A DNA stretch of 19,876 nt. Source: a virus (taxonomy: Duplodnaviria; Heunggongvirae; Uroviricota; Caudoviricetes). Made by a program: the position numbers and the translations under genes. Location: IMG/VR virus record IMGVR_UViG_2690316325_000023; one strand, 5' to 3'. The notes below the pieces were generated by a model that searched no databases, had not been told where the DNA came from, and saw nothing but the letters and a program-made list of their open reading frames with translations. Within the stretch, counting starts at the first letter, position 1; the number at the start of each line of letters is the position of its first letter. Below are positions 577 to 17,507 of the stretch, in pieces.

Positions 577-1080
577 TTACTGATAGTGTTTTATGTTCAG
601 ATAATGCCCGATGACCTTGTCATGCAGCTCCACCGATTTTGAGAACGACAGTGACTTCCGTCCCAGCCTTGCCAGATGTTGTCTCAGATTCAGGTTATGC
701 CGCTCAATTCGCTGAGTGTAACGCTTGCTGATTACGTGCAGCTTTCCCTTCAGGCGGGATTCATACAGCGGCCAGCCATCCGTCATCCATACCACGACCT
801 CAAAGGCCGACAGCAGGCTTAGAAGACGCTCCAGTGTGGCCAGAGTGCGTTCACCGAATACGTGCGCAACAACCGTCTTCCGGAGCCTGTCATACGCGTA
901 AAACAGCCAGCGCTGGCGCGATTTAGCCCCGACGTATCCCCACTGTTCGTCCATTTCCGCGCAGACGATGACGTCACTGCCCGGCTGTATGCGCGAGGTT
1001 ACCGACTGCGGCCTGAGTTTTTTAAATGGCGGAAAATCGTGTTGAGGCCAACGCCCATAATGCGGGCGGTTGCCCGGCAT
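577..1080 (-). CDS. insB: IS1 transposase InsB (expressed as the InsAB' fusion by frameshift)
   Basis: 167-aa translation ending ...[12 protein letters not shown] is the recognisable IS1 InsB sequence; overlaps insA in the -1 frame as in IS1. Confidence 0.9.
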
Positions 1081-1274
1081 CCAACGCCATTCATGGCCAT
1101 ATCAATGATTTTCTGGTGCGTACCGGGTTGAGAAGCGGTGTAAGTGAACTGCAGTTGCCATGTTTTACGGCAGTGAGAGCAGAGATAGCGCTGATGTCCG
1201 GCGGTGCTTTTGCCGTTACGCACCACCCCGTCAGTAGCTGAACAGGAGGGACAGCTGATAGAAACAGAAGCCAC
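999..1274 (-). CDS. insA: IS1 InsA transcriptional repressor / transposase N-terminal part
   Basis: 91-aa translation [23 protein letters not shown]... with zinc-finger Cys pairs is canonical IS1 InsA; starts on GTG 55 nt inside the IS end. Confidence 0.9.
1017..1023 (-). other. IS1 A6C programmed -1 ribosomal frameshift motif (TTAAAAAACTC on the coding strand)
   Basis: Plus-strand gagttttttaa at about 1015-1025 is the reverse complement of the IS1 slippery run, located in the insA/insB overlap. Confidence 0.7.
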
Positions 1275-1349
1275 TGGAGCACCTCAAAAACACCATCATA
1301 CACTAAATCAGTAAGTTGGCAGCATCACCAAACTGTTGAGGTTTCTACT

Positions 1350-2588
1350 TTATAAAGAATTGCTACTTTCTAATTCTGGGTTTCTGGATCTATTTTTACA
1401 ACCTAAATCCGAGTGGTAATTCGGTATATCGTTTGTCAAATCTTGTTTGATAGCATTAATTAAGATCATTATGTCGAATTTATGCATATCGTCGCCCCCT
1501 TCAGACCTTAGATGTTCGGATGTGGTGAGTTGAGTCGCTAATTTGCTGTTTGGCCCCCACACAATATTATTTTCGAATTTTCCTTCATGCATTCTGTTAT
1601 TATATATACAGTATTGTCTAATGTTTAATGCACTGGCTAAATGTACAATGGCAGTATCTACAGTTATAACAAAATCAGCATGGCGAACCAATGCAAATGA
1701 ACATCCGGCATCAGAAAATGGAGATAGAGACACATTATCCAATCCATTGTGATTAATCTGTTTTCCCATATTAAAAACTATTGTGTGATATCCCTTAAGG
1801 TTATTAAGGTAAGCTAGTACTTTGTTTATCTGTTCATCAGATAAGGTTCTGCTATTCTGAGAGCCATAAGGGTTAAATATAACTAATTTTTTGTTTTTCT
1901 TCCTGAATTCATTTGCAACAATATTTGCTGGTTCATATATTTTGTTGTCAAAATTAAGCGCTGCAGCATAATTATTATTTTTTATCTTTAGTAAAGATAA
2001 AACTTTTTTCATTCTTTCAGATGTGTGAATGGAACGATTATCGATTATATTTGTATCAAAAATAGTTACGGCAGGATGATTAAAACAGATAGAGTGTTTA
2101 GGTCTAAGTAAATGTAGTGTTTGCAATCTGGTTATCGCTGTGTTATCAAAATTTGAGAAGTCAACAACAAGATCTACATTCAGTTTTTTTATCTTTGCTT
2201 TTAGTTCGTTAAATTTATTTTTCTCGTAAGATATAAAGGCATCCACGCCAACAATATCAGTAAAGAGGAATGATACTCTTGAAGGTGCTATCACATATAC
2301 CACCATACCGGATTTTTGAAGTTGTTTAATAAACCCTGAGGTAACGATGCCGTCACCAATGGCTTGCATGTGCATGAAAATGCACACTGTTTTATAACTA
2401 TCCGGCTGTAATGATGTTTTCCTTCTGTATCGCATTTTTAGAAATGCCAGTCTGGCCTTCGTCTTTATCTTTTTTGTTTTAATATTTCGCTGTCTGTTAA
2501 GCTGTTTTAATGATGAAATAACATTCATAATGGTACCCTGAAATTCCAAATCACACATGTCATCCGAAATGAGCAGGGTACTATACAA
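1350..2588 (-). CDS. Glycosyltransferase family 9 (ADP-heptose:LPS heptosyltransferase-like) protein; accessory cargo gene
   Basis: The translation carries GT9 signatures: an N-terminal KTVCIFMHMQAIGDGIV segment (compare WaaC MRVLIVKTSSMGDV) and a C-terminal FVITVDTAIVHLASAL segment (compare WaaC FVVSVDTGLSHLTAAL). About 30% GC versus about 55% in the phage genes. The true start is probably an internal Met (for example MRYRRK..., near 2435), since the first ~50 codons look like a low-complexity extension. Confidence 0.6.
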   Translation of the reverse strand: MYSTLLISDDMCDLEFQGTIMNVISSLKQLNRQRNIKTKKIKTKARLAFLKMRYRRKTSLQPDSYKTVCIFMHMQAIGDGIVTSGFIKQLQKSGMVVYVIAPSRVSFLFTDIVGVDAFISYEKNKFNELKAKIKKLNVDLVVDFSNFDNTAITRLQTLHLLRPKHSICFNHPAVTIFDTNIIDNRSIHTSERMKKVLSLLKIKNNNYAAALNFDNKIYEPANIVANEFRKKNKKLVIFNPYGSQNSRTLSDEQINKVLAYLNNLKGYHTIVFNMGKQINHNGLDNVSLSPFSDAGCSFALVRHADFVITVDTAIVHLASALNIRQYCIYNNRMHEGKFENNIVWGPNSKLATQLTTSEHLRSEGGDDMHKFDIMILINAIKQDLTNDIPNYHSDLGCKNRSRNPELESSNSL

Positions 2589-2622
2589 AAAACTGGACTA
2601 CAATGGTTTGAAATGAAAGCCT

Positions 2623-3222
2623 TTATGCTTGTTTACTCCTTGATTCCACTGGGGAAGCTGGCCACTCAATATCCGGTGCTCTTGATGTATCAACACGGTT
2701 CAGCAGCACTCGATACTTCTTCCAGGCTTCCAGCAACGAGATTTCTTCCTCCGTTGCGATTTCCAGATCTACAGCATCCTGAAGTGGCGCAATATGCTCA
2801 CTGGCTACCTGCATCAGGCTGTTTTTTGTTTCTTCTGCCTCCCGGATCCGGAACAGTTTTTCTGCTTCCGTATCCTTCACCCAGGCTGTGCCGTTCCACT
2901 TCTGATATTCCCCTTCCGGCGACGACCAGGTAACATTTTCCGGTAACGGACCGAGTTCAGAAATAAATAACGCGTCGCCGGAAGCCACGTCATAAACCGT
3001 TTTACCACGATGATCTTCAACGAGATGCCAAGACGCCCCATCACTGTTGAAAACAGCCACGAAGCCAGCTGGAATATCTGGCGGAGCAATATCAGTACTA
3101 TTTGCAGGCAGACCTGTATGAGGTGGAATGTATGCATCATCTTCACCAATAAATTCATTGGTTCCGACCAGCAGATTATAAATTTTTATGGTTCGTGGTT
3201 GTTCACTCATTCTGAATGCCAT
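2623..3222 (-). CDS. G: Tail fibre assembly chaperone (P2 gpG-like)
   Basis: Position immediately after tail fibre gene with TAATG stop/start overlap at 3220-3224; size and N-terminal sequence consistent with P2 G family. Confidence 0.8.
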
Positions 3223-5333
3223 TATGCAAGCCTCACAATATAGTTAAATGCGATGTTTTTTACGGTGTTTTCCGCGTTGCCATAAGCGGCAATGGTAATG
3301 GTGTGTGTGTGCGAACCAATAGCGAGCGTATGTGTATGCGCACCTATTGCTACTGTGTGAGTATGAGCTCCTGCGCTTAATACGCGATTACTTGCTGCCT
3401 TGCTTGTGTTAGTTGCATGCATTCCACCACCGGTACCGGGAGTTTCTGCGTATGCTGAAGTATTGTTGTAAGCAAAGTTGTGTGTATGTGCTCCGGTGTT
3501 ATTTGTGGATTTAGTTCCGTAATCAAACGACGATGTGGTTTTCGTCCCCAAATCCGTACTGGATGCGCTGGCGCTGTGGGTGTGCGATTTAATGCCGTCC
3601 TGTTCCTGAGACAATACGGCCCGACCACTGGCAGGTTTGCCCTTAATCGTCCAGCCACGCATATCAGGGATCACGCCTGACGGATAAGCGACTGCAAGTT
3701 TCGGGTAGGCAGATTTGTCAAAAGTCTGCCCCTGCATCAGGGCATAACCAGACGGAACGGTATCCGATGGCCACGGGATTGGTGCGCCAGGCGGATAAAA
3801 CTGCTCTGATGGCGTATAGAGTGAATAAACTGTACCGTCCGTTAACCCTTCCGGCTTATTAGCAGAATATGCTGGTGACGTATGAATCGTCACGCTGGCA
3901 TTACTGGTATAATCCCATTGAATATTTACACCAGTCGCATAATTTCCGATTGCAACGTAAATATCGTAAGTATCACCAGATGTATTGACCCAGGCAAAAT
4001 TTGTAAACCCTGCCGATGTGCGCTGCCATAAAGCACCAGTAATCCCCTTCGGATTACCATTACCTGCACGCAAAACAATTTCAGATATACCTGCCTGTTG
4101 AGGTGAACCGACGTTATATCCAGCGCCACCAATCAACGTAATTGAAACAACAGAACTCGCCTGTGGCATGGTTACCGTTGCTAATTTGAACCAACCAGCA
4201 CCACCTCTGAATGACATTGTTGTTGAGTTAAGCGTACCAATATCTTTCGGTGTCAGTGTTATATCCGCTGAAAGCGCCTTACCATTCACCTTACGGGCAG
4301 AAGGTACCCGACCATTCGCATTGTCATTAGCTGCTTTCACTGCTTTCGGTGTCGCAGCAAGCGTTTCAGATGCGCTGTTAGTCGCGCTGCTTAGCTGGAC
4401 AATTCCTTTTTGTGCTGTCGTAGCGTCCTGAGCGGTATATTTCCCGTTAGCAAGGTCATAGGCTGCCTTTACCGACTTTGGCGTTGCCGCCAGCGTTTCA
4501 GACGTGCTGTTGGTGGCGCTACTGAGCTGGACAAGGCCTTTCCGCGCTGTGGTGGCATCCTGCGCAGTATATTTCCCGTTAGCAAGGTCATATGCTGCCT
4601 TTACCGCCATTGGTGTTGCCGCCAGCGTTTCTGAATCGCTGTTGGTGGCGCTACTGAGCTGGACAAGTCCTTTCCGCGCTGTAGTGGCGTCCTGTGCGGT
4701 ATATTTCCCGTTAGCAAGGTCATAGGCTGCCTTGACCGCTTTCGGCGTTGCGGCCAGTGCTTCAGACGTGCTGTTGGTGGCGCTACTGAGTTGAACAAAG
4801 CCTTTTGCAGTCAGCGAGGCGTCCGGGTGACGTCGTGACTGTTCATGCTCTTTCAGTTTGTCATCCACGTAATCCACTGTGGCCATCACCATGGTGTTAT
4901 CCACGGTAAGCGCCACGGTGGCCGTGCTGGATACGGTCAGAATGGTGCGAAATGTTTGTGCACGTCCGGACCCTTCGGCAACGGTTGGTTTGTAACTTTC
5001 GGCAGTATTGCCCACCGCGATTAAATCGCCGTGCTCATCAAATACACCAATTTCCCGGATCCAGAATCCGCCCGTTTCAGGAGGAATAACCAGCTCTGCA
5101 ATAATGCGGTTCTGATGTGTTGCGTCCAGGATGACGCGATTAACAGTGTGTCGCCACACCTCATGCACAAGACGGGTCTGCTTACTGTCTGGCGAGGGCA
5201 ACGTGCCGCCGCCGTCACCCACGGCCATGTGAGTCAGGCGGACCGGTTTACCATCTGGTGTGGCTGCCTGCGCTAATTTTTTTTCACCCGTATCGGTGAT
5301 AACGGTTTTAAATTTTCGTGTTGTGGTACTCAT
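3222..5333 (-). CDS. H: Tail fibre protein (P2 gpH-like) with internal 44-aa tandem repeats and a His-rich C-terminal tip
   Basis: 703 aa; N-terminal ~170 aa typical of P2 H. Four (3.7) tandem 44-aa repeats [44 protein letters not shown]. C-terminus has GAHTHT / SHTHT His-x-His repeats typical of fibre tips. Confidence 0.9.
4314..4802 (-). repeat. 132-bp in-frame tandem repeat array (about 3.7 copies) inside tail fibre gene H
   Basis: The motif cccgttagcaaggtcata recurs at about 4443, 4575 and 4707 (period 132 bp), matching the 44-aa protein repeat. Confidence 0.85.
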
Positions 5334-5335
5334 GC

Positions 5336-5866
5336 TTAATCGTCCGGATAAATGGTAATGACTTCACCGTCGTAAGTTGCTGCCGCCGCGAAAATATCCC
5401 CCGGAATTTCCTGAATGATATTCAGCCCTGTCATGTGGCGGCTGACCGGGCGGGCATCAGCAATCAACCGCTCCATTTCCAGATACATTTCCTCCGTCAC
5501 GCCACTGTCCAGCGTGCCGACTTCAACGGTAAATGTTCCCGGTTCTCCGCCGAACTCCCACCACTCAGACACGCGAATGAGGTATCCCAGCGGCTCAATG
5601 GCCCGGCGCAGTGCGCTGATGGTTCCTTTGTGTCGGTGTATCAGCCATGCATCACGAATCACCTGTCGCTTTGTCTCTTCCGGCCAGTTGCGATCCCAGC
5701 GGTCAACGGAAAATGCCCAGGCGAGATAAGGCAGCAGATGCACCGGGCAGGTGTCCGGTGACCACAGCGTGTTGAGGTCTACCGGGATGTCTGTAATGCG
5801 CGCTCCGACAGCTTCGGCGCAACGCATGAAATTGCTGGCTGATGGCGGTAACAGTGAATTACTCAT
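5336..5866 (-). CDS. I: Baseplate/tail protein (P2 gpI-like)
   Basis: Translation from the internal Met (MSNSLLPP...) gives 176 aa, the P2 gpI length; gene order J-I-H. The ORF track's longer 187-aa version (to 5899) would overlap J more extensively. Confidence 0.8.
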
Positions 5867-6755
5867 TACGCCCACCTTCGCTGATGGTGAATGACTCACA
5901 GCGCGCCGCCTGTATGTCGCTGATGGCCATATTCTGTGTGGGTTCGATTATCTCCACGCGTTGCACACCGTGCACATGCAGTGCGGCAGCAATGGCGGAC
6001 AACGCCACGTCCTGACCGATAAGCCCCTGCTCAGCCAGCCACTTCCTGAACGACGATTCAGCTGCGGCCAGAATAGGTTCGGATTCCGGGCCGGGGTAAA
6101 AGTACAGTTTTGCATTCAGCCGCCATGTCACGATTCTGGCGCTCTGTACCGTCAGGCGGTCGGCCACCGGGCGGGTATCCTCTGCATTCAGAACGGCGCG
6201 AACGGTATTAAGCAACGCCTCCGTTGCTGTGCCGTCGCCTTCAGTGGACAGGATGGAAACCGTCACATTGGCCGGAGACGGACTGATAGCCCGCGCATCA
6301 CGCACCAGACCGCTGGCGCTGCGGGCAAAATACTCGTATGCACCTGACGGGCCAGCAACACTCAGGCCGTCGTACGCCCGCTGCGCCCGCAGTCTAAGCG
6401 AGGTGTCGCTCTCCATCACCGCGTCGGTGGTATCCGTTGCCGGAGTGATAACCAGGCGCTTTGTGTTCATATTGCCCGCGAGGTTGTCCAGGTCTGTCCC
6501 GGCGCTGTGGCTTAACATGCAGGCGCGTGCACCCTCATTGACCCGCTGGCGTAACAGCATTTCACGAAACGCTGTTGTCTGGGCGATAACGTTAAGGGGT
6601 TCCGATTCCAGCTCCAGCGCGGCGGAAACGGCTTCACGCTGTTCGGCGGGATAGGACGCAATCATCATGGCTTTTGTGTCAGCCAGAATTGCTTCAAAGT
6701 CAGGCTCCGCGATGATGGCGGGTTCCGGTAACTGGGAAAGGTCAACGGCGGGCAT
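5859..6755 (-). CDS. J: Baseplate assembly protein J (P2 gpJ-like)
   Basis: 298 aa, position between W and I, sequence character of the P2 J family. Confidence 0.88.
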   Translation of the reverse strand: MPAVDLSQLPEPAIIAEPDFEAILADTKAMMIASYPAEQREAVSAALELESEPLNVIAQTTAFREMLLRQRVNEGARACMLSHSAGTDLDNLAGNMNTKRLVITPATDTTDAVMESDTSLRLRAQRAYDGLSVAGPSGAYEYFARSASGLVRDARAISPSPANVTVSILSTEGDGTATEALLNTVRAVLNAEDTRPVADRLTVQSARIVTWRLNAKLYFYPGPESEPILAAAESSFRKWLAEQGLIGQDVALSAIAAALHVHGVQRVEIIEPTQNMAISDIQAARCESFTISEGGRNE

Positions 6756-6758
6756 GAT

Positions 6759-7109
6759 TTACTCCCTCAGCGTGATGGTTAATTCAACATTCTGCATGGT
6801 CTGCATGACAGTGCCCGACAGCGTCACCCCGGCGCGGCCTCCTGCCTTCCAGACAACGTCGATGGCGTCCAGGGCAATGCGGGGTTCCCATCGTGTCAGT
6901 GCAATCACGGCAGCACTCATGCATTGCAGACGCGTGGTGTTATTCATGGGTTCGTCAATCAAATCAGGCAAAAGGCTGCCATATTCCCGTCGCATAACCC
7001 GGCTTGCCAGCGGGGTGGTCAGGATGTCCCTGACTGACTGTTTCAGGTGCTCCATATCGTTCAGGTTTCCCGTCCCGTCCGGGTTCATTCCTGTGTAGCG
7101 GGTTGTCAC
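6759..7109 (-). CDS. W: Baseplate protein W (gpW/gp25 family)
   Basis: 116 aa; P2 gpW is 115 aa; sits between V and J. Confidence 0.88.
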   Translation of the reverse strand: MTTRYTGMNPDGTGNLNDMEHLKQSVRDILTTPLASRVMRREYGSLLPDLIDEPMNNTTRLQCMSAAVIALTRWEPRIALDAIDVVWKAGGRAGVTLSGTVMQTMQNVELTITLRE

Positions 7110-7687
7110 TGCGGGCCTCCTGTCGAATCGCTGCCACCTTTAACGCCACCGTGCTTATGTGTATGCACTGTGATGCCGTTTGAGGTGAAATTGCCGCCGC
7201 TGTGCGTGATATTGCCGCTCATCTTTCCCCCTTTTGTGACGTCAAGCGTCGCCGTTCTCAGAAGGTTTGTGCATTCCACGACGGGCGTGTCCAGTGTCAC
7301 GCTGACGGATGCCTGCAGGCTGGCTGTTTTCATGCCGCTGGCGCTCAGTGCGCCTGCGTCCGCGTCGTAGCGGAACACCGCGCCATCCGGCGCGCTGACC
7401 ACGATTTCTTTCAGGCTTTTGCCGGGGGCCGGACTGGCATCACTCCACAGGCTGCCAATTATCATGGCGGTTTCCGGGTTGCCGCCGATGCAGGCAATGA
7501 CCACCTGTTCGCCGGGTGATGGCGGCAGCCACACATTGAAGGCTCCCGCGCGCGTGGTGTTCCAGCGTAACCAGCCTGTTTCCAGTTCGCCGCTGCGAAC
7601 GCGCACGCACCAGGACTTCTCATCAACTTCAGAGATGATCCCGGTGCGGATGACATTGCTCAGCAGTCGCATGAGTTCTGCGCTCAC
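7106..7687 (-). CDS. V: Baseplate central spike protein V (P2 gpV-like)
   Basis: 193 aa with Gly-rich C-terminus; 4-nt overlaps with S and W as in P2 late operons. Confidence 0.88.
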   Translation of the reverse strand: MSAELMRLLSNVIRTGIISEVDEKSWCVRVRSGELETGWLRWNTTRAGAFNVWLPPSPGEQVVIACIGGNPETAMIIGSLWSDASPAPGKSLKEIVVSAPDGAVFRYDADAGALSASGMKTASLQASVSVTLDTPVVECTNLLRTATLDVTKGGKMSGNITHSGGNFTSNGITVHTHKHGGVKGGSDSTGGPQ

Positions 7688-8328
7688 CGTACAGCCTCCG
7701 CAATCCGGCCCAGCACCGTGTTATAAATCAGGCGCTCATCTGCCTGGCTGATACCCAGCAGCTCACGTACCGGGTAATCGGTGAAAATGCCCGGCGCAAC
7801 CTGATCGCGCTCACCGAACTGATGAACGCGTGCAATACGTGCGGCCACGCCGCTGTAACCCACCGTCACACCGGAAGCATCTGCACGGGTTTTCAGGTAG
7901 CGGGCGGTGCGCAGTTTTACGAACATGGGGACGCGCCTGGTGCTGTCCTGGTTGATGCGCCGGGTGCGTATTTCCAGAAAACGGTCGATGTCATCCCGGT
8001 AAAACGTGCGGATATTGTTTTTATCCTCATCCCACCCGGTAATGGTTCGCCCGTATTTCCCCGTGTCGTGATGCCAGTTTTTCAGCGTGCGTGCTTCGTT
8101 ATTCCAGATAAAGCGAATGCGTTCCTGTATCCGGGTTACGCGGCGTCTGCGTGGTGTCCACGCGGTCCCGTCCGGCGCTTTCTGTGACCGGATACGCGCC
8201 TGCTGGGCGCGGCGTAAATCCTGTGCCAGCTTTCTGGCGATGTTATTGATGGCCTGCTGATTCAGGCTGTCGCGGATGGCCTCAAAGGTTTCATCCACGC
8301 GGGTGAATGCCTTATCCATCGCTTTCAC
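7684..8328 (-). CDS. S: Tail completion / virion morphogenesis protein (P2 gpS-like), longer than P2 S
   Basis: Position between R and V. At 214 aa it is longer than the ~150 aa I recall for P2 S, so identity rests mainly on synteny. Confidence 0.6.
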   Translation of the reverse strand: MKAMDKAFTRVDETFEAIRDSLNQQAINNIARKLAQDLRRAQQARIRSQKAPDGTAWTPRRRRVTRIQERIRFIWNNEARTLKNWHHDTGKYGRTITGWDEDKNNIRTFYRDDIDRFLEIRTRRINQDSTRRVPMFVKLRTARYLKTRADASGVTVGYSGVAARIARVHQFGERDQVAPGIFTDYPVRELLGISQADERLIYNTVLGRIAEAVR

Positions 8329-8779
8329 CCCACGTCACATCCTGGAATACATGCGACCAGTCGCCTTCGGAAGAGGGCAGACGGGGTTTTGGCTCCGGCA
8401 GGTGTTCTGCCTGCGGTGTGCCCTGACTGTTGCGCGTGATGCGAACGCGTTCCCGCAGGGGGAGCGTAAACAGGAGGTCGGCGCTGTCATCGTCATTGAT
8501 AACGGCGGAGAATTTGATGTCCTGATTACGCTCAGGGTTGAGCAGCAACTGTGGCTGATTTTCGGATAACCACGCCAGCAGCGGCAGCGTGAGGTCATCC
8601 AGCTCCCCGGCGTAATCCATGACAAACATCACCATCTGATAGCGGTAAACAAACGAGGGCGTTTCTCCGGTCGTTTCAATGTTGCCGCTCTCCACGAAAA
8701 TGGTGAATTTTTCCGGGTTGGCCTGACACCATCGGCATGAACGGGTCATGGCTTCACGCAGGGAATCAGTTTTCAGCAT
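8312..8779 (-). CDS. R: Tail completion protein R (P2 gpR-like)
   Basis: 155 aa, same length as P2 gpR; MLKTDSLR... N-terminus and LLAWL.ENQP motif resemble P2 R. Confidence 0.8.
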   Translation of the reverse strand: MLKTDSLREAMTRSCRWCQANPEKFTIFVESGNIETTGETPSFVYRYQMVMFVMDYAGELDDLTLPLLAWLSENQPQLLLNPERNQDIKFSAVINDDDSADLLFTLPLRERVRITRNSQGTPQAEHLPEPKPRLPSSEGDWSHVFQDVTWGESDG

Positions 8780-9086
8780 GGTTGTTGTCCTCGTTGTTCA
8801 GTCGTTGCAGCCTGCGCTGTTCCAGTAATTCAATGGCCCGTTTATCCGCGTTACAGGTTTCCAGTGCATCCAGAAGGCGGTCGCCCCATATACCGAGATT
8901 TCCCCATGTGGGAGTGTCAGGGAAGGGGGGAGGCGTTACCGGTATGGTCAGCGTCTGCGGTATAAGCCGGACTGACGGCGCTGGCCGTGGCGCGTTCTGC
9001 GTGCCTGCGCAACCTGTCAGTAAAACGAGCGTCAGGCAAAGCGTGGGCGCATTCATCTTTTGCAATATCGTTGCGTAGCTGTTCAC
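8766..9086 (-). CDS. lysC: Outer-membrane spanin (Rz1 / LysC-like lipoprotein), overlapped with lysB
   Basis: Signal peptide with lipobox LLTGC followed by a proline-rich mature region; starts inside the i-spanin gene in another frame and extends past it. Confidence 0.75.
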   Translation of the reverse strand: MNSYATILQKMNAPTLCLTLVLLTGCAGTQNAPRPAPSVRLIPQTLTIPVTPPPFPDTPTWGNLGIWGDRLLDALETCNADKRAIELLEQRRLQRLNNEDNNHAEN

Positions 9087-9324
9087 GTCTGGCCTCTCCG
9101 TCCTGATTGCGTTGCTGATTTTCCGCGCGGAGTTGTGCCAGCACCTGCTGCATATCCTGTACCCCGGCGCTGATGATATTCAGGGTGTCGACGGTACTTT
9201 TCAGGGTGCTGGCCTGCGCTTCGTTTCTGGCGTTCTCCCGGCCCAGTGACCACGACAGACGCATGGATGCTCCCCAGGCGGCAATCAGAAGAAAAGCGAC
9301 GCCCAGCGTGGGCCAGAGCTTCAT
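8917..9324 (-). CDS. lysB: Inner-membrane spanin (Rz / LysB-like)
   Basis: From the internal Met MKLWPTLGVAFLLIAAWG: N-terminal TM helix then a charged, coiled-coil-like region. Its ATG overlaps the endolysin TGA (ATGA at 9321-9324). The ORF track's upstream extension is probably not translated. Confidence 0.75.
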   Translation of the reverse strand: MKLWPTLGVAFLLIAAWGASMRLSWSLGRENARNEAQASTLKSTVDTLNIISAGVQDMQQVLAQLRAENQQRNQDGEARREQLRNDIAKDECAHALPDARFTDRLRRHAERATASAVSPAYTADADHTGNASPLP

Positions 9325-9713
9325 GCCGGATAAACTCCGTGCGGTAACTGAAAATGCGGTCCGTCTTTCAGGGTCTTCCAGTCGCCGCCCCATTCCACCG
9401 GAATATTCAGTTCCCGGCTGGCCTGTCTGAATGCTGCTGCGATTTTTTCGTACAGCGGCCATTCCCATGACACCTGGCTGCCGACATAAGCCACAACATC
9501 CACGGCATGCCCCGTAAGGTGGCGGCTGTTCATGGTCTGGCTCTTACCCGTGGCCACAAGTTGCTTCTGGCGGTAACGGCTGCGCAACCCTTCGGTGATA
9601 CCAAAATCCACTTCCGAAATTTCCAGTGCCCGTCGGGTCACTTTCACCAGCTCAGGATTTACGCCCTGCAAATTCTTTTCGCTCCGGCTGCTGAATTTAA
9701 ATGTGTTGCTCAT
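9321..9713 (-). CDS. Endolysin, peptidase M15 family (L-alanyl-D-glutamate peptidase-like)
   Basis: 130 aa with the zinc-peptidase motif SRHLTGHAVD and a downstream EWGGDW...H segment; located between holin and spanins. Confidence 0.8.
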   Translation of the reverse strand: MSNTFKFSSRSEKNLQGVNPELVKVTRRALEISEVDFGITEGLRSRYRQKQLVATGKSQTMNSRHLTGHAVDVVAYVGSQVSWEWPLYEKIAAAFRQASRELNIPVEWGGDWKTLKDGPHFQLPHGVYPA

Positions 9714-10033
9714 TCGTCCTTCTCCTTCACCCTGCGATTAAAGGCCGCAATAACCTTGTCGCGTGCTTTCTCTGCCCCCATAAAACCGATTGATGCGCCG
9801 ATAAACGTCACGGCATCTTCAGGAAAACCGAAGAAGCGCAACGACCCGGCCACGGCCATGGCGAGAACGCCGCACGCCAGCGATCCCGTTACGGTCTGAA
9901 CCAGTGTTCGTCCGTCATAAAGACTCATCAGCGCGGAAATGCTGACCGCCGCGCCTGCTGCATACACCGTTGGCAGGTGGTCAAAGAGCCATGCAATAAC
10001 CTGCTCTGTGATCCCTGTTTGAATGGTGTTCAC
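9710..10033 (-). CDS. Holin (three predicted TM segments)
   Basis: Probable GTG start with GGGGGGAG Shine-Dalgarno 5 nt upstream, directly after the X stop. The 107-aa product has three hydrophobic stretches and a charged C-terminal tail (RRVKEKDE). The ORF track's 180-aa version overlaps X and is unlikely. Confidence 0.65.
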   Translation of the reverse strand: MNTIQTGITEQVIAWLFDHLPTVYAAGAAVSISALMSLYDGRTLVQTVTGSLACGVLAMAVAGSLRFFGFPEDAVTFIGASIGFMGAEKARDKVIAAFNRRVKEKDE

Positions 10034-10035
10034 TG

Positions 10036-10236
10036 CTACTCCCCCCACAACTGAATCATTTCTCGTTTCTTCTTCTCCGGCTCCGGCATCTCCACGTCCT
10101 GCCCGGCGTCCAGAAATACCTGCTGACAGAGTCCGGGGTTGGCATCCAGCACCTTTTCGGTGACGCCCTGCGTCGTGCCGTAGTACCGGAAACAGAGCGA
10201 ATCCACGGTGTCGCCTTCCAGTGCCTTCACTTTCAT
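10036..10236 (-). CDS. X: Tail protein X (P2 gpX-like)
   Basis: From the internal Met (MKVKALEGDTVDSLCFRYYG...) gives 66 aa resembling P2 X; ATG overlaps the L stop (TGATG). Confidence 0.8.
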   Translation of the reverse strand: MKVKALEGDTVDSLCFRYYGTTQGVTEKVLDANPGLCQQVFLDAGQDVEMPEPEKKKREMIQLWGE

Positions 10237-10739
10237 CAGCACAACTCCGCAAAGATTCGCGGGCGGCACAGAATGTCAGAGATGGCCCAGCTCACATCGC
10301 GCCACAAATCTGATGTCTGTATATCCAGTGCGTCCGCCCGGCGGTCGCCCTTGTCCGTTGTGTCCGCATCGCGGTAACGCTCCAGAATCAGGGCGCGTGT
10401 GGCGGTATAAACAGCATTGCGCCAGTGCCAGAGATTGACGCTTTCTCCGTTAATTACGGGTGCCGGAACATCGGCCAGCGTCTGATGGCCAGCCGCCTGC
10501 TGTTCCTGCTGCCATGCTTCCAGCTCGCGGGTAACGTGAGCCACCGCCCCGGTGGCGGTATGCAGCAGGCGGGAGGTGGTCACACGGCCCGGCAGTCGTA
10601 CCGCCAGACGCAGCTCACGCAGCACAATATCCGGCCAGAATGCGCCCGCTGAAATACGGGTATCACCATCATCGGTATCGGTGATGTCGTCCTCTGCGGG
10701 TCCGGGGTTGGTTCTGGCAACCATACTCATGGGGTTCAC
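10236..10739 (-). CDS. L: Head completion protein L (P2 gpL-like)
   Basis: 167 aa; position after the terminase small subunit M; size matches P2 L (169 aa). Confidence 0.85.
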   Translation of the reverse strand: MNPMSMVARTNPGPAEDDITDTDDGDTRISAGAFWPDIVLRELRLAVRLPGRVTTSRLLHTATGAVAHVTRELEAWQQEQQAAGHQTLADVPAPVINGESVNLWHWRNAVYTATRALILERYRDADTTDKGDRRADALDIQTSDLWRDVSWAISDILCRPRIFAELC

Positions 10740-10743
10740 TCCT

Positions 10744-10816
10744 GAAAAAAATCGGGCGGTGGGTGCGCGGTGTAAACGGTCACGGAGTCAAACCGGAACA
10801 CCGCGCACGCCGCCCG
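10744..10816 (-). terminator. Terminator/attenuator-like interrupted hairpin plus U7 tract between M and L
   Basis: Plus-strand tcgggcggtgggtgcgcggtg (about 10751-10771) pairs with caccgcgcacgccgcccg (about 10799-10816); on the minus strand the stem is followed by TTTTTTT (plus-strand A7 at about 10744-10750) and then the L Shine-Dalgarno AGGAG. Confidence 0.35.
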
Positions 10817-10832
10817 CTGACGGGGTCAGTCG

Positions 10833-11633
10833 TTAACCGCGCTTCGCCTTCTGCGTCGCGGTGGTTTTTCGTGTTGCAGGCTTCCGCGTTGTCTTTTTAC
10901 TTTTGCTGCTTTCGTCCTGCGCCTGCTGTGCGCTGGCGTCTTCTGGTGCGGCTGCGGAATCGGCTTTTTTCAGGGCGCGGGAAAGGGTTGCAATCTCGCG
11001 TTTCACACCTGCGTTCGGGTTCAGGTGCATTGCTTCGCGCAGCAGCTTCAGTGACAGTGCCATGCTGTCCGCATCGCTCAGGCCACGGCGGGCAAAGGCG
11101 CACGCCTTGCATAATTTGGCGCGCACTTCGTCCGGCATGTCCTGGTCGGTGACAATCTCCCGGAGGGTATCCAGTGGTTCGATAAAGGCGGACAAATCCG
11201 CGTCGGCATCCGTCCCGGCCTGCGTCAGTACCGGGTTGCAGATTTCTTCGGTCAGCACTGTGGCAGCAGTACGGCCAAAGTTATCCGGCATAATGAGGTT
11301 ATGACGGACCACATACGCACCAATACGCAACGCCAGCGGAAGATCGCCGCAGTCAATCGCCCACACCATCAGCGTGGCAATCACTTCATCCTGCTGCCCG
11401 CCGTCAGCCTCCAGCGTTCCCTCAATCCAGCCGGAAAAATCCGGCAACAACTCTTTTTTGATGGCGGCTTTCGCGCTTCTGGCCTGTACGCCCTTAAGCC
11501 GGGCCTGTGCCAGACGCAGACGATACAGCACCTCTTCATGCGCGGTACGCGCGGCGTGGTCCACGCCTTCATTCGCCCGGCCTGCGCGCTGTGCCATCAC
11601 GTTCTGCCAGTGTTGCTGTGCAGGAGTAATCAT
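10833..11633 (-). CDS. M: Terminase small (endonuclease) subunit M (P2 gpM-like)
   Basis: 266 aa, basic Lys/Arg-rich C-terminal tail; position between N and L. Confidence 0.88.
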   Translation of the reverse strand: MITPAQQHWQNVMAQRAGRANEGVDHAARTAHEEVLYRLRLAQARLKGVQARSAKAAIKKELLPDFSGWIEGTLEADGGQQDEVIATLMVWAIDCGDLPLALRIGAYVVRHNLIMPDNFGRTAATVLTEEICNPVLTQAGTDADADLSAFIEPLDTLREIVTDQDMPDEVRAKLCKACAFARRGLSDADSMALSLKLLREAMHLNPNAGVKREIATLSRALKKADSAAAPEDASAQQAQDESSKSKKTTRKPATRKTTATQKAKRG

Positions 11634-11678
11634 TGTTTCTCTCCGTTACAGGCGGGCATGATGCCCGCCGTGAGTTGA

Positions 11679-12731
11679 TTAGCTGTCGGCGAACTTCAGG
11701 CCAGTGACCATCGCGCACTTGCCATAGTCTTCAACGACATAAGCGTCATTGATGGACTGGTAGGTGGCGATGCGGTTGTATTCCGGCTCGTCTTTCATCA
11801 GGCGACGCATTGAACCTTTCTGCCAGTAAATCGACAGGTTGTTGAACGAGGTGATCAGCATCGTTGCATCCGGGAAGAACGGCGCAAGGAACACACCCAG
11901 CCCGCCAATGGTGCGCGATGACAGGATGAGCTGCCCGGCGAGTAATTCCGCATTGGGATTCTGGCCGCTGATGCTGTTCAGCACGGGCAGACGCAGCGAG
12001 TTAAACAGGTTGCGCCCCATAATCACCACGAGGTCGTCAGCTTCCTTGTGCCATTCATCCAGCAGGGATGAGCGTGCGTCCTGAACCAGTGCATCAGCAT
12101 TCGCATACTTACCCGCGTGCGCCACGGTGTTGTCCATGTTGCGGGAGGTCAGCGTCACGTCATTCATTACGCGCGCGCTGGCATTGGTTCTGATGTGCTC
12201 CAGCCACCCCACGTTAACGTCCTGAAGCAGCTTGTTGGTGCTGAAGTTGGATTTTTCCGCGTGTGACGTGCCGTTAAAGCCGATCATGATGCGGTCAAGC
12301 GCCACCTGTCGGGCAATCTGTGCGCTGATGCGGGTCTGGAAGTCATTGTGCGCCGCCCAGGCATCAAGCTGCGGATACGAAATAAACGTGTCGTAGTTCA
12401 CCTGCTCACACTGGTACTGACGGGACTTCAGGTCGACAGCGTTAATCGGGTTGCGGCGATCTGTGCCGTCATAACTGGTATTTGTGCGCGCAATCGGCCC
12501 GGTGGTGTCCATGAGGACTTTTTCGCCTTTCTGGTCGGTCACACCGATCACGTTAATTTTTTTTGTAAGTTCGGTGCTATCCTTTGAGGCGTTTTCAAAA
12601 CGCTGCTGCACCGCGGGTTCCACGGTAAATCGCGATACCAGTCCAGAAACCGGGATATTGTTAATCGACGCCTGTCGCGTCATGTAGCAGCCCAGCTTGT
12701 TACGGGCATTATCTGACATCACCAGATTCAT
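11679..12731 (-). CDS. N: Major capsid protein N (P2 gpN-like)
   Basis: 350 aa; motifs KFTVEP, ARVM, MLITSFNNLSIYW and YVVEDY align with what I recall of P2 gpN. Confidence 0.93.
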   Translation of the reverse strand: MNLVMSDNARNKLGCYMTRQASINNIPVSGLVSRFTVEPAVQQRFENASKDSTELTKKINVIGVTDQKGEKVLMDTTGPIARTNTSYDGTDRRNPINAVDLKSRQYQCEQVNYDTFISYPQLDAWAAHNDFQTRISAQIARQVALDRIMIGFNGTSHAEKSNFSTNKLLQDVNVGWLEHIRTNASARVMNDVTLTSRNMDNTVAHAGKYANADALVQDARSSLLDEWHKEADDLVVIMGRNLFNSLRLPVLNSISGQNPNAELLAGQLILSSRTIGGLGVFLAPFFPDATMLITSFNNLSIYWQKGSMRRLMKDEPEYNRIATYQSINDAYVVEDYGKCAMVTGLKFADS

Positions 12732-12754
12732 AAAAAATTTGCTCCTTTGTCTTA

Positions 12755-13624
12755 TCAGAAGTCAGCCAGCTGGTCGGAGGCTGCGCCCGTTGCGGTGAAC
12801 CGGTTCTGCGGATCGCCGTCCTGCGTGCGCAGTTTTTCCTTCAGTGCTGTCAGCTCTGTGGTCAGCGAAGTGATTTTCTGGCTGTCCTGCTGATGGTGGG
12901 TTTCCAGTGCATTAAAACGGTCGATAATGTCGGCCTGTGATGTTGCGACACCTTCCACCGCTTCCTGAATACGGGAGAAACTGGCGTCATCCGCTTTGCG
13001 GCCACGGCCAATAATCCCCATAACGCGGTTAAACCACTGGGTGCCTTCTTCCTGACGTTGTTCGGTGAGTTCGATAAGTTCTGACTCCATAGCGGCGGTA
13101 AACATCGCCACGTCTCCCTGCTGACAGTTGAATGTCATCAGTTGCATACGTTGTTGTGCCGCAAAGGCCAGACGTTCCGTGCCCAGGCTGGCGGGGGTGT
13201 CGGTCATTGCCAGCCCGCGCAGGTAAGGGCCTCCCGTGATGGTTGACTGTGGTTCCAGCTCAATACTGGAGTAAATTTTTTTACCATCGTTAAGCAGGGA
13301 CATCATGCGAGCGGTCGGCTCAATTTCGGCATACAGTGCCGTGCGGCCTGCCAGCGGGCCATCGGTTATGTCTTCGGTGCTCAACCCCACAACATCGCCC
13401 ATAGCGGAAAACTCGCTGCCGGGGAGTGGTGACAGGATGTGCTCAATATTCACACGTGCACCATAAACGGACGGGTTATAACTGGTGGCGGCAGCTTTCA
13501 GCATGTCGCCGTTGATTTCGCGCCCGTCTGCCGTCACACCGGAGACAGCCACGCGAAACTTTTTGCGGGATGTCTTTTTTTCATTAGTCATAGTTTTTGC
13601 CCCTCTGACTGGTTCTTCAGTCAT
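12755..13624 (-). CDS. O: Capsid scaffolding protein O (P2 gpO-like)
   Basis: 289 aa; first gene of the leftward late operon, divergent from P; AAGGAG Shine-Dalgarno of N directly downstream. Confidence 0.9.
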   Translation of the reverse strand: MTEEPVRGAKTMTNEKKTSRKKFRVAVSGVTADGREINGDMLKAAATSYNPSVYGARVNIEHILSPLPGSEFSAMGDVVGLSTEDITDGPLAGRTALYAEIEPTARMMSLLNDGKKIYSSIELEPQSTITGGPYLRGLAMTDTPASLGTERLAFAAQQRMQLMTFNCQQGDVAMFTAAMESELIELTEQRQEEGTQWFNRVMGIIGRGRKADDASFSRIQEAVEGVATSQADIIDRFNALETHHQQDSQKITSLTTELTALKEKLRTQDGDPQNRFTATGAASDQLADF

Positions 13625-13745
13625 GATGGCAAAGCGTAACAGGCTGATACAAAGGGCTTTTGTTGTAAGAAAACGGCCAGAACAGGGGGTTAAGGAGAAC
13701 GGTTTCGCGCGCGGGTAATCTTCCTGTAATTACTCAGGGGGAGCA
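13625..13745. promoter_or_regulatory. Divergent late-operon control region between O and P (expected activator-dependent late promoters)
   Basis: 121-bp intergenic region between divergent O and P, as in P2 where Ogr-dependent promoters sit here. Contains a TGTTGT...ACA partial dyad (about 13661-13684) and the GGGGGAG Shine-Dalgarno of P. No promoter mapped with certainty. Confidence 0.4.
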
Positions 13746-16543: not shown

Positions 16544-16569
16544 CGCGCTTCGCTTGTCTGCTGCTTCGC

Positions 16570-16594
16570 CGGGGCATAAAAAATTTATGCCCCG
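16570..16594. terminator. Perfect 11-bp-stem hairpin (cggggcataaa-aaa-tttatgccccg) just downstream of Q
   Basis: Palindrome read directly, 26 nt after the Q stop. No clean U tract follows, so its role as a terminator is uncertain; it could belong to the cos/packaging region. Confidence 0.3.
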
Positions 16595-16993
16595 ACTCTC
16601 CAGCTCCTGTATCAGTCAGATAATTTCACGACGCTTTCCTGCTTATTGCCATCATCGACGGTCAGATTCTTACGCAATCCCACTGCGCTGACTGCATGTT
16701 CTCGCCGCCTCAGTGCGATTTTGACGGCCTTACCTTTCACCCCATCAAACCAGAATCCCTCACGTATTTTTCACGCTCAGCGTGAGAAATACGGCCATTC
16801 TGTTGTATCTCTGCGACATCGTTCAGGGAATGCTATTTACCCCCTGAAACGCGGGCTGTTCCCCCGTCACCTGCGCGCAGAAAAAACGCGTTTTTTTGTG
16901 CACGTACGGATCCTTGACGGATCCAGCCACCACGCGGGCCGGAAGTACAAAAAGTCGTTCAAAAAAATTGTGCAAACTTGTGCACTATCGTGC

Positions 16994-17020: not shown

Positions 17021-17029
17021 TCAAAAGTA

Positions 17030-17461: not shown

Positions 17462-17507
17462 GCATGGACAATGCCGCGCAATTATCTTGTCGCTCACAAT
17501 GCGAACG

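What the first reader, a model, noticed from the sequence alone, without database searches (positions are those of the whole stretch)
1350..2588. AT-rich family-9 glycosyltransferase (heptosyltransferase-like) gene as cargo immediately downstream of tail-fibre assembly gene G
In P2 the region after G is the non-essential Z/fun slot, a known site for acquired genes. Here it carries a gene of clearly foreign composition (about 30% GC versus about 55%) whose product has the GT9 motifs of LPS core heptosyltransferases. A prophage-encoded LPS-core-modifying enzyme could alter the receptor and give superinfection exclusion or serotype conversion. A single GT9 enzyme as phage cargo is uncommon compared with the well-known gtrABC and O-acetylase conversion modules.
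Basis: partly seen in the sequence, partly recalled or inferred. Interest (0 to 1): 0.6.

Follow-up and report, generated by a model that had tools for sequence, protein, structure and literature searches.

The report
Prophage-borne WaaU-like LPS core glycosyltransferase
A P88-like (P2-family) prophage of E. coli carries, just after its tail-fibre genes, an AT-rich gene for a divergent family-9 glycosyltransferase whose nearest characterised relative is WaaU, the enzyme that adds the fourth heptose to the LPS outer core; it probably remodels the lysogen's LPS core, but nobody has tested this.

Summary
Window 1350-2528 (minus strand, ATG at 2528, 392 aa) is an intact gene of 33% GC in a 55% GC prophage, 94 nt downstream of the tail-fibre assembly gene G. 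The product passes Pfam GT9. Its AlphaFold model (pLDDT 90) matches GT9 structures best (3tov, WaaC, WaaF) and it keeps the GT9 motifs.

New here:
- The family is a WaaU (HepIV transferase)-like branch. Its profile scores K-12 WaaU at 118 bits (hhalign E 8e-22, 307 columns), against 23, 15 and 9 bits for WaaQ, WaaC and WaaF.
- Chromosomal homologues lie in LPS gene clusters: the waa operon of Symbiopectobacterium (55% identity), core-type glycosyltransferase clusters of Gilliamella and Orbus, and the asmA/galF edge of O-antigen clusters.
- Providencia homologues again follow the tail-fibre genes, in prophages with two unrelated baseplate types.
- The host phage is P88-like (Xuanwuvirus), not P2 proper. 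Isolates hold an invertible fibre cassette plus invertase in this slot.
- 49 of 5426 complete E. coli genomes carry the gene, with dN/dS 0.13-0.28.

The LPS-core reading is supported by fold, family and context. Donor, acceptor, expression timing and any exclusion phenotype are untested. The gene is already annotated in RefSeq. Interest is moderate.

The parts
1350..2528 (-). WaaU-like GT9 glycosyltransferase gene, 392 aa, ATG at 2528, TAA at 1350-1352. The basic N-terminal helix is residues 2-33, the GD motif is G58-D59, and the VDTxxxH motif is D291/T292/H296.
   Evidence: ORF. Start position from the alignment of 34 homologues. Pfam GT9. AF2 model pLDDT 90 and Foldseek top hits 3tov/WaaC/WaaF. 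hhalign to WaaU E 8e-22. GC 0.331.
2529..2622 (-). 94-nt spacer between the stop of G and the GT9 ATG. No consensus terminator or sigma-70 promoter was found on the coding strand, so read-through from the late tail-fibre operon is possible.
   Evidence: Sequence; promoter and terminator scan.
2623..3222 (-). Tail-fibre assembly gene (G/Tfa, Caudo_TAP), immediately upstream of the GT9 gene.
   Evidence: Pfam PF02413 149 bits. About 90% DNA identity to tfa of lambdoid phages that lack the GT9 gene.
3222..5333 (-). Tail fibre gene H. The N-terminal part is P88-like; the distal part (about 3222-4400) is a lambdoid stf-type tip with a Collar domain and HxH repeats.
   Evidence: Pfam; phage BLAST.
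577..1329 (-). IS1 element (InsA/InsB ORFs). Its end lies 20 nt after the GT9 stop codon. It truncates the prophage and joins it to an unrelated chromosomal TPR gene (1-561).
   Evidence: ORFs; sequence; the match with other carriers ends at 1330; 1-561 matches a TPR protein gene in 1107 genomes.

Best explanation
The gene encodes a soluble, strongly basic GT-B glycosyltransferase of the WaaU (HepIV transferase)-like branch of CAZy family GT9. It most likely works at the cytoplasmic face of the inner membrane. There it would transfer a sugar from a nucleotide-sugar donor onto a hexose of the lipid A-core outer core before the molecule is flipped and ligated to O antigen. [quoted passage not shown] The gene is non-essential cargo (a moron) of a P88-like temperate phage, sitting at the end of the tail-fibre gene block. 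In a lysogen the extra or altered core residue would change a surface structure that many phages use as receptor, and which in K-12 is the O-antigen attachment site. That would give receptor masking or core-level seroconversion. Shown here: the fold, the family, the conserved motifs, the LPS-cluster context of homologues, the recurrent prophage position, intactness and purifying selection. Inferred: donor, acceptor, expression in the lysogen and the phenotype.
For: Fold and family:
- Pfam GT9 is above its cutoff.
- The AF2 model has pLDDT 90 and pTM 0.86. Its best PDB matches are all GT9: 3tov, WaaC 2h1h/6dfe/2gt1 and WaaF 1psw, with E 1e-11 to 5e-14 and TM 0.6-0.7.
- The invariant columns G58-D59, N219-P220, R227 and V290-D291-T292..H296 correspond to the GT9 'GD' and 'VDTGxxHL' motifs. 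The last block aligns to WaaC D261/T262/H266.

Subfamily:
- The family profile against K-12 WaaU gives hhalign probability 99.4, E 8e-22 over 307 columns, including the basic N-terminal helix. HMM score is 118 bits, against WaaQ 23, WaaC 15 and WaaF 9.
- WaaU adds HepIV to GlcIII, which is the O-antigen attachment site in K-12 (PMC13293308). HepIV enzymes add heptose to an outer-core Glc or Gal (PMC5713226).

Context of homologues:
- The 55%-identical homologue is the last gene of a waaQ-waaG-waaP-GT4-GT8-GT8-X operon, just before waaA-coaD-mutM. That contig is Symbiopectobacterium by WaaA identity of 96-97%.
- In Gilliamella it sits with another GT9 and three RfaI/J-type GT8 genes. In Orbus it sits with GT2, GT9 and two sulfatase-family genes. 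In Vibrio it is near a canonical GT9.
- In a Citrobacter genome and a related metagenomic contig it lies between asmA and galF at the edge of an O-antigen cluster.

Prophage recurrence:
- In Providencia stuartii, alcalifaciens and rettgeri it again lies 100-140 nt after the tail fibre or TAP gene, in prophages with two non-P2 baseplate types. Twice it has a second envelope-type enzyme next to it, a hexapeptide acetyltransferase or a GT2.

Selection:
- 15 of 18 further E. coli copies are intact.
- dN/dS is 0.13-0.28. For the most divergent pair there are 20 synonymous and 22 non-synonymous changes, binomial p 1.6e-4.
- The gene stays intact in heavily decayed prophage remnants (L002, L003, L004).

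Localisation and composition:
- There is no TM segment. The first 40 residues hold 14 K/R and no acidic residue.
- Low GC is typical of outer-core genes: K-12 waaU 0.31 and waaJ 0.34.
Against: - No experiment or paper addresses this protein.
- Identity to WaaU is only about 21%, so donor and acceptor cannot be transferred with confidence.
- No promoter or terminator separates the gene from the late fibre operon. It may be expressed late in lytic growth rather than in the lysogen, and AT-rich DNA in E. coli is often silenced by H-NS (general knowledge).
- PADLOC has no model for it.
- The same fibre-tip/TAP module occurs at about 90% identity in many lambdoid phages without the gene. A functional coupling to the fibre is therefore not required.
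- I could not determine the core types of the carrier strains, so a suitable acceptor in E. coli is not shown.
Confidence: 0.7

Rival explanations
1. The enzyme is an LPS core glycosyltransferase, as in the main explanation, but it serves the phage during lytic growth. Co-transcribed with the late tail-fibre genes, it would modify the core of the dying cell so that released virions are not wasted on debris and neighbouring lysogens. It would not act as a lysogenic-conversion gene.
For: The gene has the same orientation as the fibre and TAP genes and lies 94-140 nt after them in every prophage context examined. No terminator or consensus promoter was detected in between.
Against: New LPS made in the last minutes of infection would replace little of the existing outer-membrane LPS (general knowledge). 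The gene stays intact and under purifying selection in decayed prophage remnants that cannot make virions, which points to a benefit to the host. The scans are simple consensus matches and cannot exclude a promoter.
Confidence: 0.12
2. The enzyme glycosylates a protein rather than LPS. The target could be the tail fibre or another virion or surface protein, in the manner of the autotransporter heptosyltransferases TibC and Aah, which share the GT9-like fold.
For: The gene is placed next to fibre genes in prophages of three different tail/baseplate types. The fibre has Ser/Thr-rich repeats. A TibC/Aah-annotated viral protein appears among the weaker structural matches (rank 19, E 1e-5).
Against: Homologues at 37-55% identity sit in chromosomal waa or LPS clusters with no phage nearby. 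The best structural and profile matches are LPS enzymes, and WaaU is far ahead of the others. No TibC chain appears in the top 50 PDB matches. The family has no invariant cysteines, whereas TibC binds iron through cysteines (from memory, not checked here).
Confidence: 0.05
3. The gene is a passenger without function in E. coli. It would be a Morganellaceae-type or symbiont-type LPS gene picked up by a phage and carried along silently, for lack of an acceptor or through H-NS silencing.
For: Composition is foreign, and the nearest relatives are in Providencia, Symbiopectobacterium and Orbaceae. Only 0.9% of E. coli genomes carry it. Three of 18 copies have single-A deletions.
Against: dN/dS is 0.13-0.28, with a significant excess of synonymous change. 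The ORF is intact in 15 of 18 copies, including remnants where neighbouring phage genes are destroyed. The frameshifts lie in homopolymer runs of older assemblies and may be sequencing errors.
Confidence: 0.1

Closest known systems
E. coli K-12 WaaU (formerly RfaK), ADP-heptose:LPS heptosyltransferase IV
   Same: Both have the GT9 GT-B fold. Both have a basic N-terminal helix before the first Rossmann domain. They share the GD and VDTxxxHxA motifs and the 'NNxxxxxxxxN-WGPN' tail. They align end to end (hhalign E 8e-22 over 307 columns; 118 bits to the family HMM). Both genes have very low GC (0.31 and 0.33). Pfam detects both only weakly and only in the C-terminal half. In Symbiopectobacterium the homologue is the last outer-core gene of the waaQ operon.
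   Different: Identity is only about 21%. The gene here is in a prophage, not in the waa locus. Donor and acceptor are unknown. WaaU itself has had little biochemical study (PMC5713226).
Inner-core heptosyltransferases WaaC (HepI) and WaaF (HepII), with solved structures 2H1H, 6DFE and 1PSW
   Same: They are the best structural matches together with 3tov (TM 0.6-0.7). The nucleotide-sugar-binding block is conserved, with D291/T292/H296 aligned to WaaC D261/T262/H266.
   Different: Sequence similarity is limited to about 48 columns for WaaC. Scores against the family HMM are 15 and 9 bits. NCBIfam HepI scores 22.7 bits against a cutoff of 185. WaaC and WaaF lack the N-terminal basic helix.
Prophage lysogenic-conversion modules acting on LPS (gtrABC glucosylation, Oac-type O-acetyltransferases)
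   Same: All are non-essential prophage cargo predicted to change LPS, and thereby phage receptors and antigenicity. Some Providencia prophages pair the homologue with an acetyltransferase or a GT2.
   Different: Gtr systems use a bactoprenol-linked sugar and act on O antigen at the periplasmic face through membrane proteins (established knowledge). This is a single soluble cytoplasmic enzyme predicted to act on the core during its assembly. It lies next to the fibre genes, not at the int/att end.
P2 Z/fun hotspot and the G/U slot of P88-like phages
   Same: Both are variable cargo positions directly after the tail-fibre assembly gene (bioRxiv 10.1101/2024.10.15.618418).
   Different: In P88, P884B11 and 520873 the slot holds an alternative fibre tip, a TAP and a DNA invertase. 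Here it holds only the GT9 gene. The downstream neighbour is U on the opposite strand, not FI.
Receptor-blocking genes encoded next to receptor-binding genes (T5 llp next to pb5; cor next to the tail genes of lambdoid phages)
   Same: By position, a gene predicted to alter a surface receptor sits next to the genes for the receptor-binding fibre (analogy from established knowledge; cor is cited in PMC9122126).
   Different: Llp and Cor are small lipoproteins that block FhuA directly. This would be enzymatic remodelling of LPS. No exclusion phenotype has been shown. The fibre module also occurs without the gene.

Membership tests
CAZy GT9 / Pfam PF01075 (heptosyltransferase-type GT-B enzymes) | Match to the family profile above the curated threshold | tested here: met
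   PF01075 scores 26.7 bits against a cutoff of 22, E 4e-6, residues 228-332. This is marginal, but K-12 WaaU itself scores only 37.9 bits over a similar stretch.
CAZy GT9 / Pfam PF01075 (heptosyltransferase-type GT-B enzymes) | GT-B fold of two Rossmann-like domains, closest to solved GT9 structures | tested here: met
   AF2 model pLDDT 90.1 and pTM 0.86. The top PDB matches (ranks 1-4 and 6-10) are solved bacterial GT9 enzymes (3tov, WaaC, WaaF) at E 5e-14 to 7e-11; other GT-B families start at E of about 6e-7.
CAZy GT9 / Pfam PF01075 (heptosyltransferase-type GT-B enzymes) | Conserved N-terminal 'GD' (WaaC D13 equivalent) and C-terminal 'DTGxxH' donor-binding motif | tested here: met
   G58, D59, D291, T292 and H296 are invariant in 34 sequences. 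The C-terminal block aligns to WaaC 260-266. The GD equivalence comes from the alignments to WaaU and WaaQ; the roles of the residues in WaaC are recalled from the literature and were not re-checked.
CAZy GT9 / Pfam PF01075 (heptosyltransferase-type GT-B enzymes) | Glycosyl transfer from ADP-heptose (or another nucleotide sugar) to LPS core | not testable with these tools
   This needs an enzyme assay or LPS structural analysis.
WaaU / HepIV-like outer-core subfamily | Closer to WaaU than to HepI, HepII or HepIII over the full length | tested here: met
   Family HMM scores: WaaU 118 bits, WaaQ 23, WaaC 15, WaaF 9. hhalign E values are 8e-22, 4.6e-7 and 1.7e-5 for WaaU, WaaQ and WaaC.
WaaU / HepIV-like outer-core subfamily | Gene located among outer-core genes of a waa locus | tested here: inconclusive
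   This is true of homologues (Symbiopectobacterium; Gilliamella; Orbus). The window gene itself is in a prophage.
WaaU / HepIV-like outer-core subfamily | Adds L,D-heptose to a terminal outer-core hexose | not testable with these tools
   At 21% identity to WaaU, specificity cannot be inferred.
Prophage lysogenic-conversion or superinfection-exclusion gene | Non-essential cargo in a temperate phage genome | tested here: met
   The gene is absent from all sequenced P88-like phages, which are otherwise 95-96% identical. Composition is foreign. It occupies a slot with alternative contents.
Prophage lysogenic-conversion or superinfection-exclusion gene | Expressed from the repressed prophage | tested here: inconclusive
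   No consensus promoter or terminator was found between G and the gene. The scan is too crude to decide.
Prophage lysogenic-conversion or superinfection-exclusion gene | Changes LPS and phage adsorption in the lysogen | not testable with these tools
   No published data were found.
Known anti-phage defence systems (PADLOC-DB) | Match to a defence-system protein model | tested here: not met
   No PADLOC family matched at E up to 1.
Autotransporter heptosyltransferases (TibC/Aah) | Specific similarity to TibC/Aah and conserved iron-binding cysteines | tested here: not met
   There is no TibC chain among the top 50 PDB fold matches or in the PDB profile search at E up to 1. The family has no invariant cysteine. 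The cysteine criterion is recalled from memory.

The most novel reading that the evidence does not exclude
The enzyme is made together with the late tail-fibre proteins and heptosylates the phage's own fibre or another virion protein. This would explain why the gene sits directly behind the fibre or chaperone genes in prophages of three different tail/baseplate types. It would be the first glycosylated tail fibre in an enterobacterial phage, and a phage use of a WaaU-type enzyme on a protein substrate.
Probability: 0.05. Interest if true: 0.8.

Novelty: new variant of a known kind. Interest (0 to 1): 0.4.

Why it matters
The LPS outer core is a receptor for many coliphages. In K-12 the residue added by WaaU is where O antigen is attached (PMC13293308). 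If a mobile, phage-borne WaaU-like enzyme is active, it could change core structure independently of the chromosomal waa type. That would affect phage susceptibility, core-typing schemes, O-antigen ligation and recognition by core-directed antibodies.

It would also be a mode of lysogenic conversion that acts on the core at the cytoplasmic face. That differs mechanistically from the Gtr and O-acetylase systems, which act on O antigen.

The backbone is very common: P88-like prophages are in about 25% of complete E. coli genomes. The gene itself is in about 0.9%, including carbapenem-resistant clinical isolates and Shiga-toxin-producing strains. The gene is small and easily cloned, so the hypothesis is cheap to test.

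Tried and rejected
1. 'Defective prophage with an inverted F operon and truncated D'. I first read the order H> G> GT9> <U..<FI D'> this way. This was wrong. D is a full 370-aa ORF, and the order is native to P88-like phages.
2. 'Fibre tip + TAP + GT9 move as one cassette'. The TAP of a Providencia prophage is 43% identical and its fibre tip 32% identical. However, the E. coli fibre-tip/TAP module is about 90% identical to lambdoid stf/tfa modules that lack the gene, and the similarity stops at the 3' end of G. I rejected this as a requirement. A shared insertion hotspot explains the adjacency better.
3. 'Conserved GT9+GT2 pair'. The GT2 next to the P. rettgeri prophage copy and the GT2 next to the Orbus copy share only generic GT2-domain similarity (30% over 240 residues).
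4. Known defence system: no PADLOC match.
5. PHROGs gives only phrog_36326, of unknown function.
6. A sequence search of the PDB gave only marginal hits, E about 0.07 to WaaC. The fold search was needed.
7. The RfaH ops element (GGCGGTAG) and the P2 late-promoter dyad (TGT-N12-ACA) were looked for by eye in 2529-2622. Neither was seen.
8. The afdb50 fold library was unavailable.
9. Core type (R1-R4, K-12) of the 49 carrier genomes could not be obtained, because BLAST output cannot be filtered by accession.
10. Literature searches for the accession, for GT9 in prophages and for the P2 hotspot papers found no study of this gene.
Full report
**1. What is in the sequence**

The minus strand of the window carries a phage late-gene block in P2-family order. 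It includes baseplate genes, the tail fibre gene H (3222-5333; Pfam Phage_tail_fib, Phage_fiber_2 x4, Collar) and the tail-fibre assembly gene G (2623-3222; Caudo_TAP, 149 bits). After a 94-nt spacer comes the ORF 1350..2588.

All 33 homologues start at the position of the ATG at 2528, and RefSeq annotates 392 aa (WP_001100987.1). The gene is therefore 1350-2528. Its GC is 0.331, against 0.477 for G, 0.508 for H and 0.552 for the phage block as a whole.

Twenty nucleotides after the stop codon an IS1 begins (577-1329). Beyond it, 1-561 is part of an unrelated chromosomal TPR-protein gene found in 1107 E. coli genomes. In this window the prophage has thus been truncated by IS1 immediately after the gene.

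**2. The phage is P88-like, not P2**

Window 4325-19826 is 95-96% identical to Escherichia phages P88, 520873, 503458, PhiR44_2 and Citrobacter phage Shae_phiSM, all of genus Xuanwuvirus in the Peduoviridae.

Every carrier locus with downstream DNA shows the same order: H> G> GT9> <U <T <FII <FI D>. This covers 15 loci: L001, L003, L005 and 12 IMG/VR contigs. I first took this for an inversion in a defective prophage. That was wrong, for two reasons:
- D is a full 370-codon ORF.
- The same order is found in the isolated phages.

In P88, P884B11 and 520873 the slot between G and U contains a second fibre tip and a TAP on the other strand, plus a DNA invertase. In the lineage studied here that slot contains only the glycosyltransferase gene. 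The position corresponds to the variable region after the fibre genes described for P2-like phages, where Z/fun, fibre swaps and invertases are found (bioRxiv 10.1101/2024.10.15.618418).

The distal part of H and all of G (2657-4400) are about 90% identical to stf/tfa of lambdoid phages such as mEp460, ev099 and mEp332. Those phages lack the gene, and the similarity ends about 35 nt inside the 3' end of G.

**3. What the protein is**

- Pfam PF01075 (GT9) scores 26.7 bits against a cutoff of 22, over the C-terminal half only.
- NCBIfam HepI and RfaQ models score about 22 bits against cutoffs of 185 and 467.
- PADLOC gives nothing.
- PHROGs gives a family of unknown function.
- An AlphaFold model built on 34 homologues has pLDDT 90.1 and pTM 0.86.
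- Its best PDB matches are all GT9 (3tov, WaaC, WaaF) at E 5e-14 to 7e-11 and TM 0.6-0.7. The only non-bacterial proteins in that range are two chains of plant NDH-PSI complexes. Other GT-B families begin at about E 6e-7.

The invariant residues include G58-D59, N219-P220, R227 and V290-D291-T292..H296. The last block aligns with WaaC V260-D261-T262..H266.

The protein has no transmembrane segment. Its first 40 residues carry 14 Lys/Arg and no acidic residue, and they form a confident N-terminal helix that is conserved across the family.

The decisive comparison is with the four K-12 heptosyltransferases:

| K-12 enzyme | Score against family HMM | hhalign |
|---|---|---|
| WaaU | 118 bits | probability 99.4, E 8e-22, 307 columns including the N-terminal helix |
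| WaaQ | 23 bits | E 4.6e-7 |
| WaaC | 15 bits | E 1.7e-5, 48 columns |
| WaaF | 9 bits | not run |

The protein therefore belongs to a WaaU (HepIV)-like branch of GT9, at about 21% identity to WaaU itself. WaaU adds the fourth heptose to GlcIII of the K-12 outer core, which is the O-antigen attachment site (PMC13293308). HepIV enzymes add heptose to an outer-core glucose or galactose and have been little studied (PMC5713226).

In a library of 1.84 billion representatives, the family profile finds 118 clusters at E up to 1e-30 and 748 at E up to 1e-10.

**4. Where its relatives live**

Close relatives are few: 34 clusters at 90% identity.

*Chromosomal LPS contexts*
- The 55%-identical protein P0009 is the last gene of a GT9(waaQ)-GT4(waaG)-Kdo kinase(waaP)-GT4-GT8-GT8-X operon. 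It is directly followed by waaA, coaD, a GT2, mutM, rpmG, rpmB and radC, which is a canonical waa locus. Its WaaA is 96-97% identical to Symbiopectobacterium.
- In Gilliamella the homologue is followed by another GT9 and three RfaI/J-type GT8 genes.
- In Orbus sasakiae it lies with a GT2, a canonical GT9 and two sulfatase-family genes.
- In Vibrio it lies close to a canonical GT9.
- In Citrobacter sp. JGM124 and in a related metagenomic contig it lies between asmA and galF, at the head of an O-antigen cluster.

*Prophage contexts in Providencia*
- P. stuartii: Collar-type fibre, then TAP, then the homologue, at the end of a myovirus prophage with a Baseplate_J/Phage_Wedge1 baseplate.
- P. alcalifaciens: Gp10_C-type fibre, then the homologue, with a convergent hexapeptide acetyltransferase, next to smpB.
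- P. rettgeri: Mu-type baseplate, Gp53-like fibre, TAP, then the homologue, with a convergent GT2, then DinI and integrase.
- A P. rettgeri 'orphan' copy with an acetyltransferase fragment lies between acpS/fdx and tadA-mltF-purL. An E. coli remnant (L004) lies next to yfhH-tadA-mltF-purL.

The family is therefore a set of LPS-cluster genes that has repeatedly been captured at the 3' end of tail-fibre modules. The low GC is not in itself evidence of a distant donor. K-12 waaU and waaJ are 0.31 and 0.34, and the homologues are 0.26-0.32 even in their native loci, apart from the Citrobacter copy at 0.41.

**5. Distribution and selection in E. coli**

The gene is in 49 of 5426 complete E. coli genomes. 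It is always chromosomal, and 44 of the 49 are at least 99% identical to the window. The P88-type D/FI junction is in 1356 genomes, so the gene is minority cargo of a very common prophage family. No deposited phage genome contains it. By tblastn, only two Campylobacter phages have a 23%-identical relative.

Of 18 further copies, 15 are intact. Three IMG/VR copies have single-A deletions in A-runs, which may be sequencing errors.

Pairwise dN/dS is 0.13-0.28. The most divergent pair has 20 synonymous and 22 non-synonymous changes, giving p = 1.6e-4 against neutrality.

The ORF is intact in badly decayed remnants. In strain 19SZHZ869Rt, only the gene and 60 codons of G survive between two IS1 copies. 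This argues that the host benefits from the gene.

**6. Mechanism proposed, and what is inferred**

*Shown:* fold, family, motifs, context, intactness and selection.

*Inferred:* the enzyme sits at the cytoplasmic face of the inner membrane. The basic N-terminal helix and the overall positive charge suit an anionic lipid A-core acceptor. It would transfer a sugar, most simply L,D-heptose from ADP-heptose as WaaU does, to an outer-core hexose. The modified core would then change phage receptors and possibly the O-antigen ligation site.

Whether the gene is expressed in the lysogen is open. No consensus terminator or promoter was found between G and the gene, so late read-through is possible. 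I give the LPS-core glycosyltransferase function a probability of 0.7. A demonstrable exclusion or seroconversion phenotype is considerably less certain.

**7. Rivals**

- *Late-expressed LPS modification for the benefit of progeny (0.12).* It fits the gene order. It does not fit retention of the gene in dead prophages.
- *Protein (fibre) glycosylation of the TibC/Aah kind (0.05).* It fits the position. It is contradicted by the waa-locus homologues and by the specific WaaU relationship.
- *Silent passenger (0.10).* It is contradicted by purifying selection.
- *Known defence system.* There is no PADLOC match.

**8. Comparison with what is known, and novelty**

RefSeq already names the protein 'glycosyltransferase family 9 protein'. 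GT9 genes have been listed in Pseudomonas prophages, by annotation only (PMC10449497). GT9/RfaF-like proteins occur in uncultured Caudovirales.

I found no paper on this gene or on a phage-borne WaaU-like enzyme. The two large studies of P2/P4 hotspots do not mention glycosyltransferases or LPS.

The known kind is prophage-encoded LPS modification. The variant would be a single cytoplasmic outer-core GT9 enzyme, rather than Gtr or O-acetylase systems acting on O antigen.

Interest is moderate, at 0.4.

Noticed in passing
window 577-1329 and 1-561: An IS1 lies 20 nt after the GT9 stop codon. It joins the prophage to an unrelated AT-rich TPR-protein gene, so U, T, E, FII, FI, D and the rest of the prophage are missing on this side. 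The same IS1 junction occurs in strains STEC409 and 19SZHZ869Rt.
   Followed up: partly
L002 (NZ_CP080085.1 760104-763149): In E. coli 19SZHZ869Rt the intact GT9 gene and the last 60 codons of G are flanked by two inverted IS1 copies. The unit lies next to ynbB, in what was ynbA. It looks like a composite-transposon-like unit that may have moved the gene out of the prophage.
   Followed up: no
window 2681-2879 (-): Rfam RF02111 'IS009' matches at 218 bits (gathering score 117), entirely inside the coding sequence of the tail-fibre assembly gene. The family probably models the conserved 3' half of tfa genes rather than a separate RNA here.
   Followed up: no
window 17685-18960 (-): ParM/StbA (319 aa) and a StbB-type plasmid stability protein (103 aa) lie between the portal gene and the replication gene side of the prophage. 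The same pair is native to phage P88 (gp17/gp18), so P88-like phages carry an actin-type partition module.
   Followed up: partly
window 3222-4400 (-), distal part of H, plus G: The fibre tip and chaperone are about 90% identical to stf/tfa of lambdoid phages (mEp460, ev099, mEp332). They are absent from sequenced P88-like phages, which is a fibre-module swap between siphovirus and myovirus backbones. The tip contains HxH repeats ([24 protein letters not shown]).
   Followed up: partly
gene positions 54, 628 and 637 (window about 2475, 1901, 1892); loci L071, L072, L074: Three IMG/VR copies carry single-A deletions in A6-A7 runs that break the reading frame. These could be homopolymer sequencing errors or slippage-prone sites.
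   Followed up: partly
L007 10167-10733 (-), L092 7146-7535 (-), L090 7144-8118 (-): In Providencia the homologue is followed, on the opposite strand, by a hexapeptide-repeat acetyltransferase (whole or a fragment) or by a GT2 glycosyltransferase. Some prophages may therefore carry two envelope-modifying enzymes side by side.
   Followed up: partly
L004 (E. coli FDAARGOS_943) and L092/L093 (Providencia rettgeri): An E. coli prophage remnant with the gene lies next to yfhH-tadA-mltF-purL. A P. rettgeri orphan copy lies between acpS/fdx and tadA-mltF-purL. The two chromosomal neighbourhoods look syntenic across genera.
   Followed up: no
phage records MG065691.1 142249-143205 and MG065686.1 30918-31874: The unannotated genomes of Campylobacter phages A11a and A18a encode a 23%-identical relative covering 81% of the protein (tblastn E 3e-10).
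   Followed up: no
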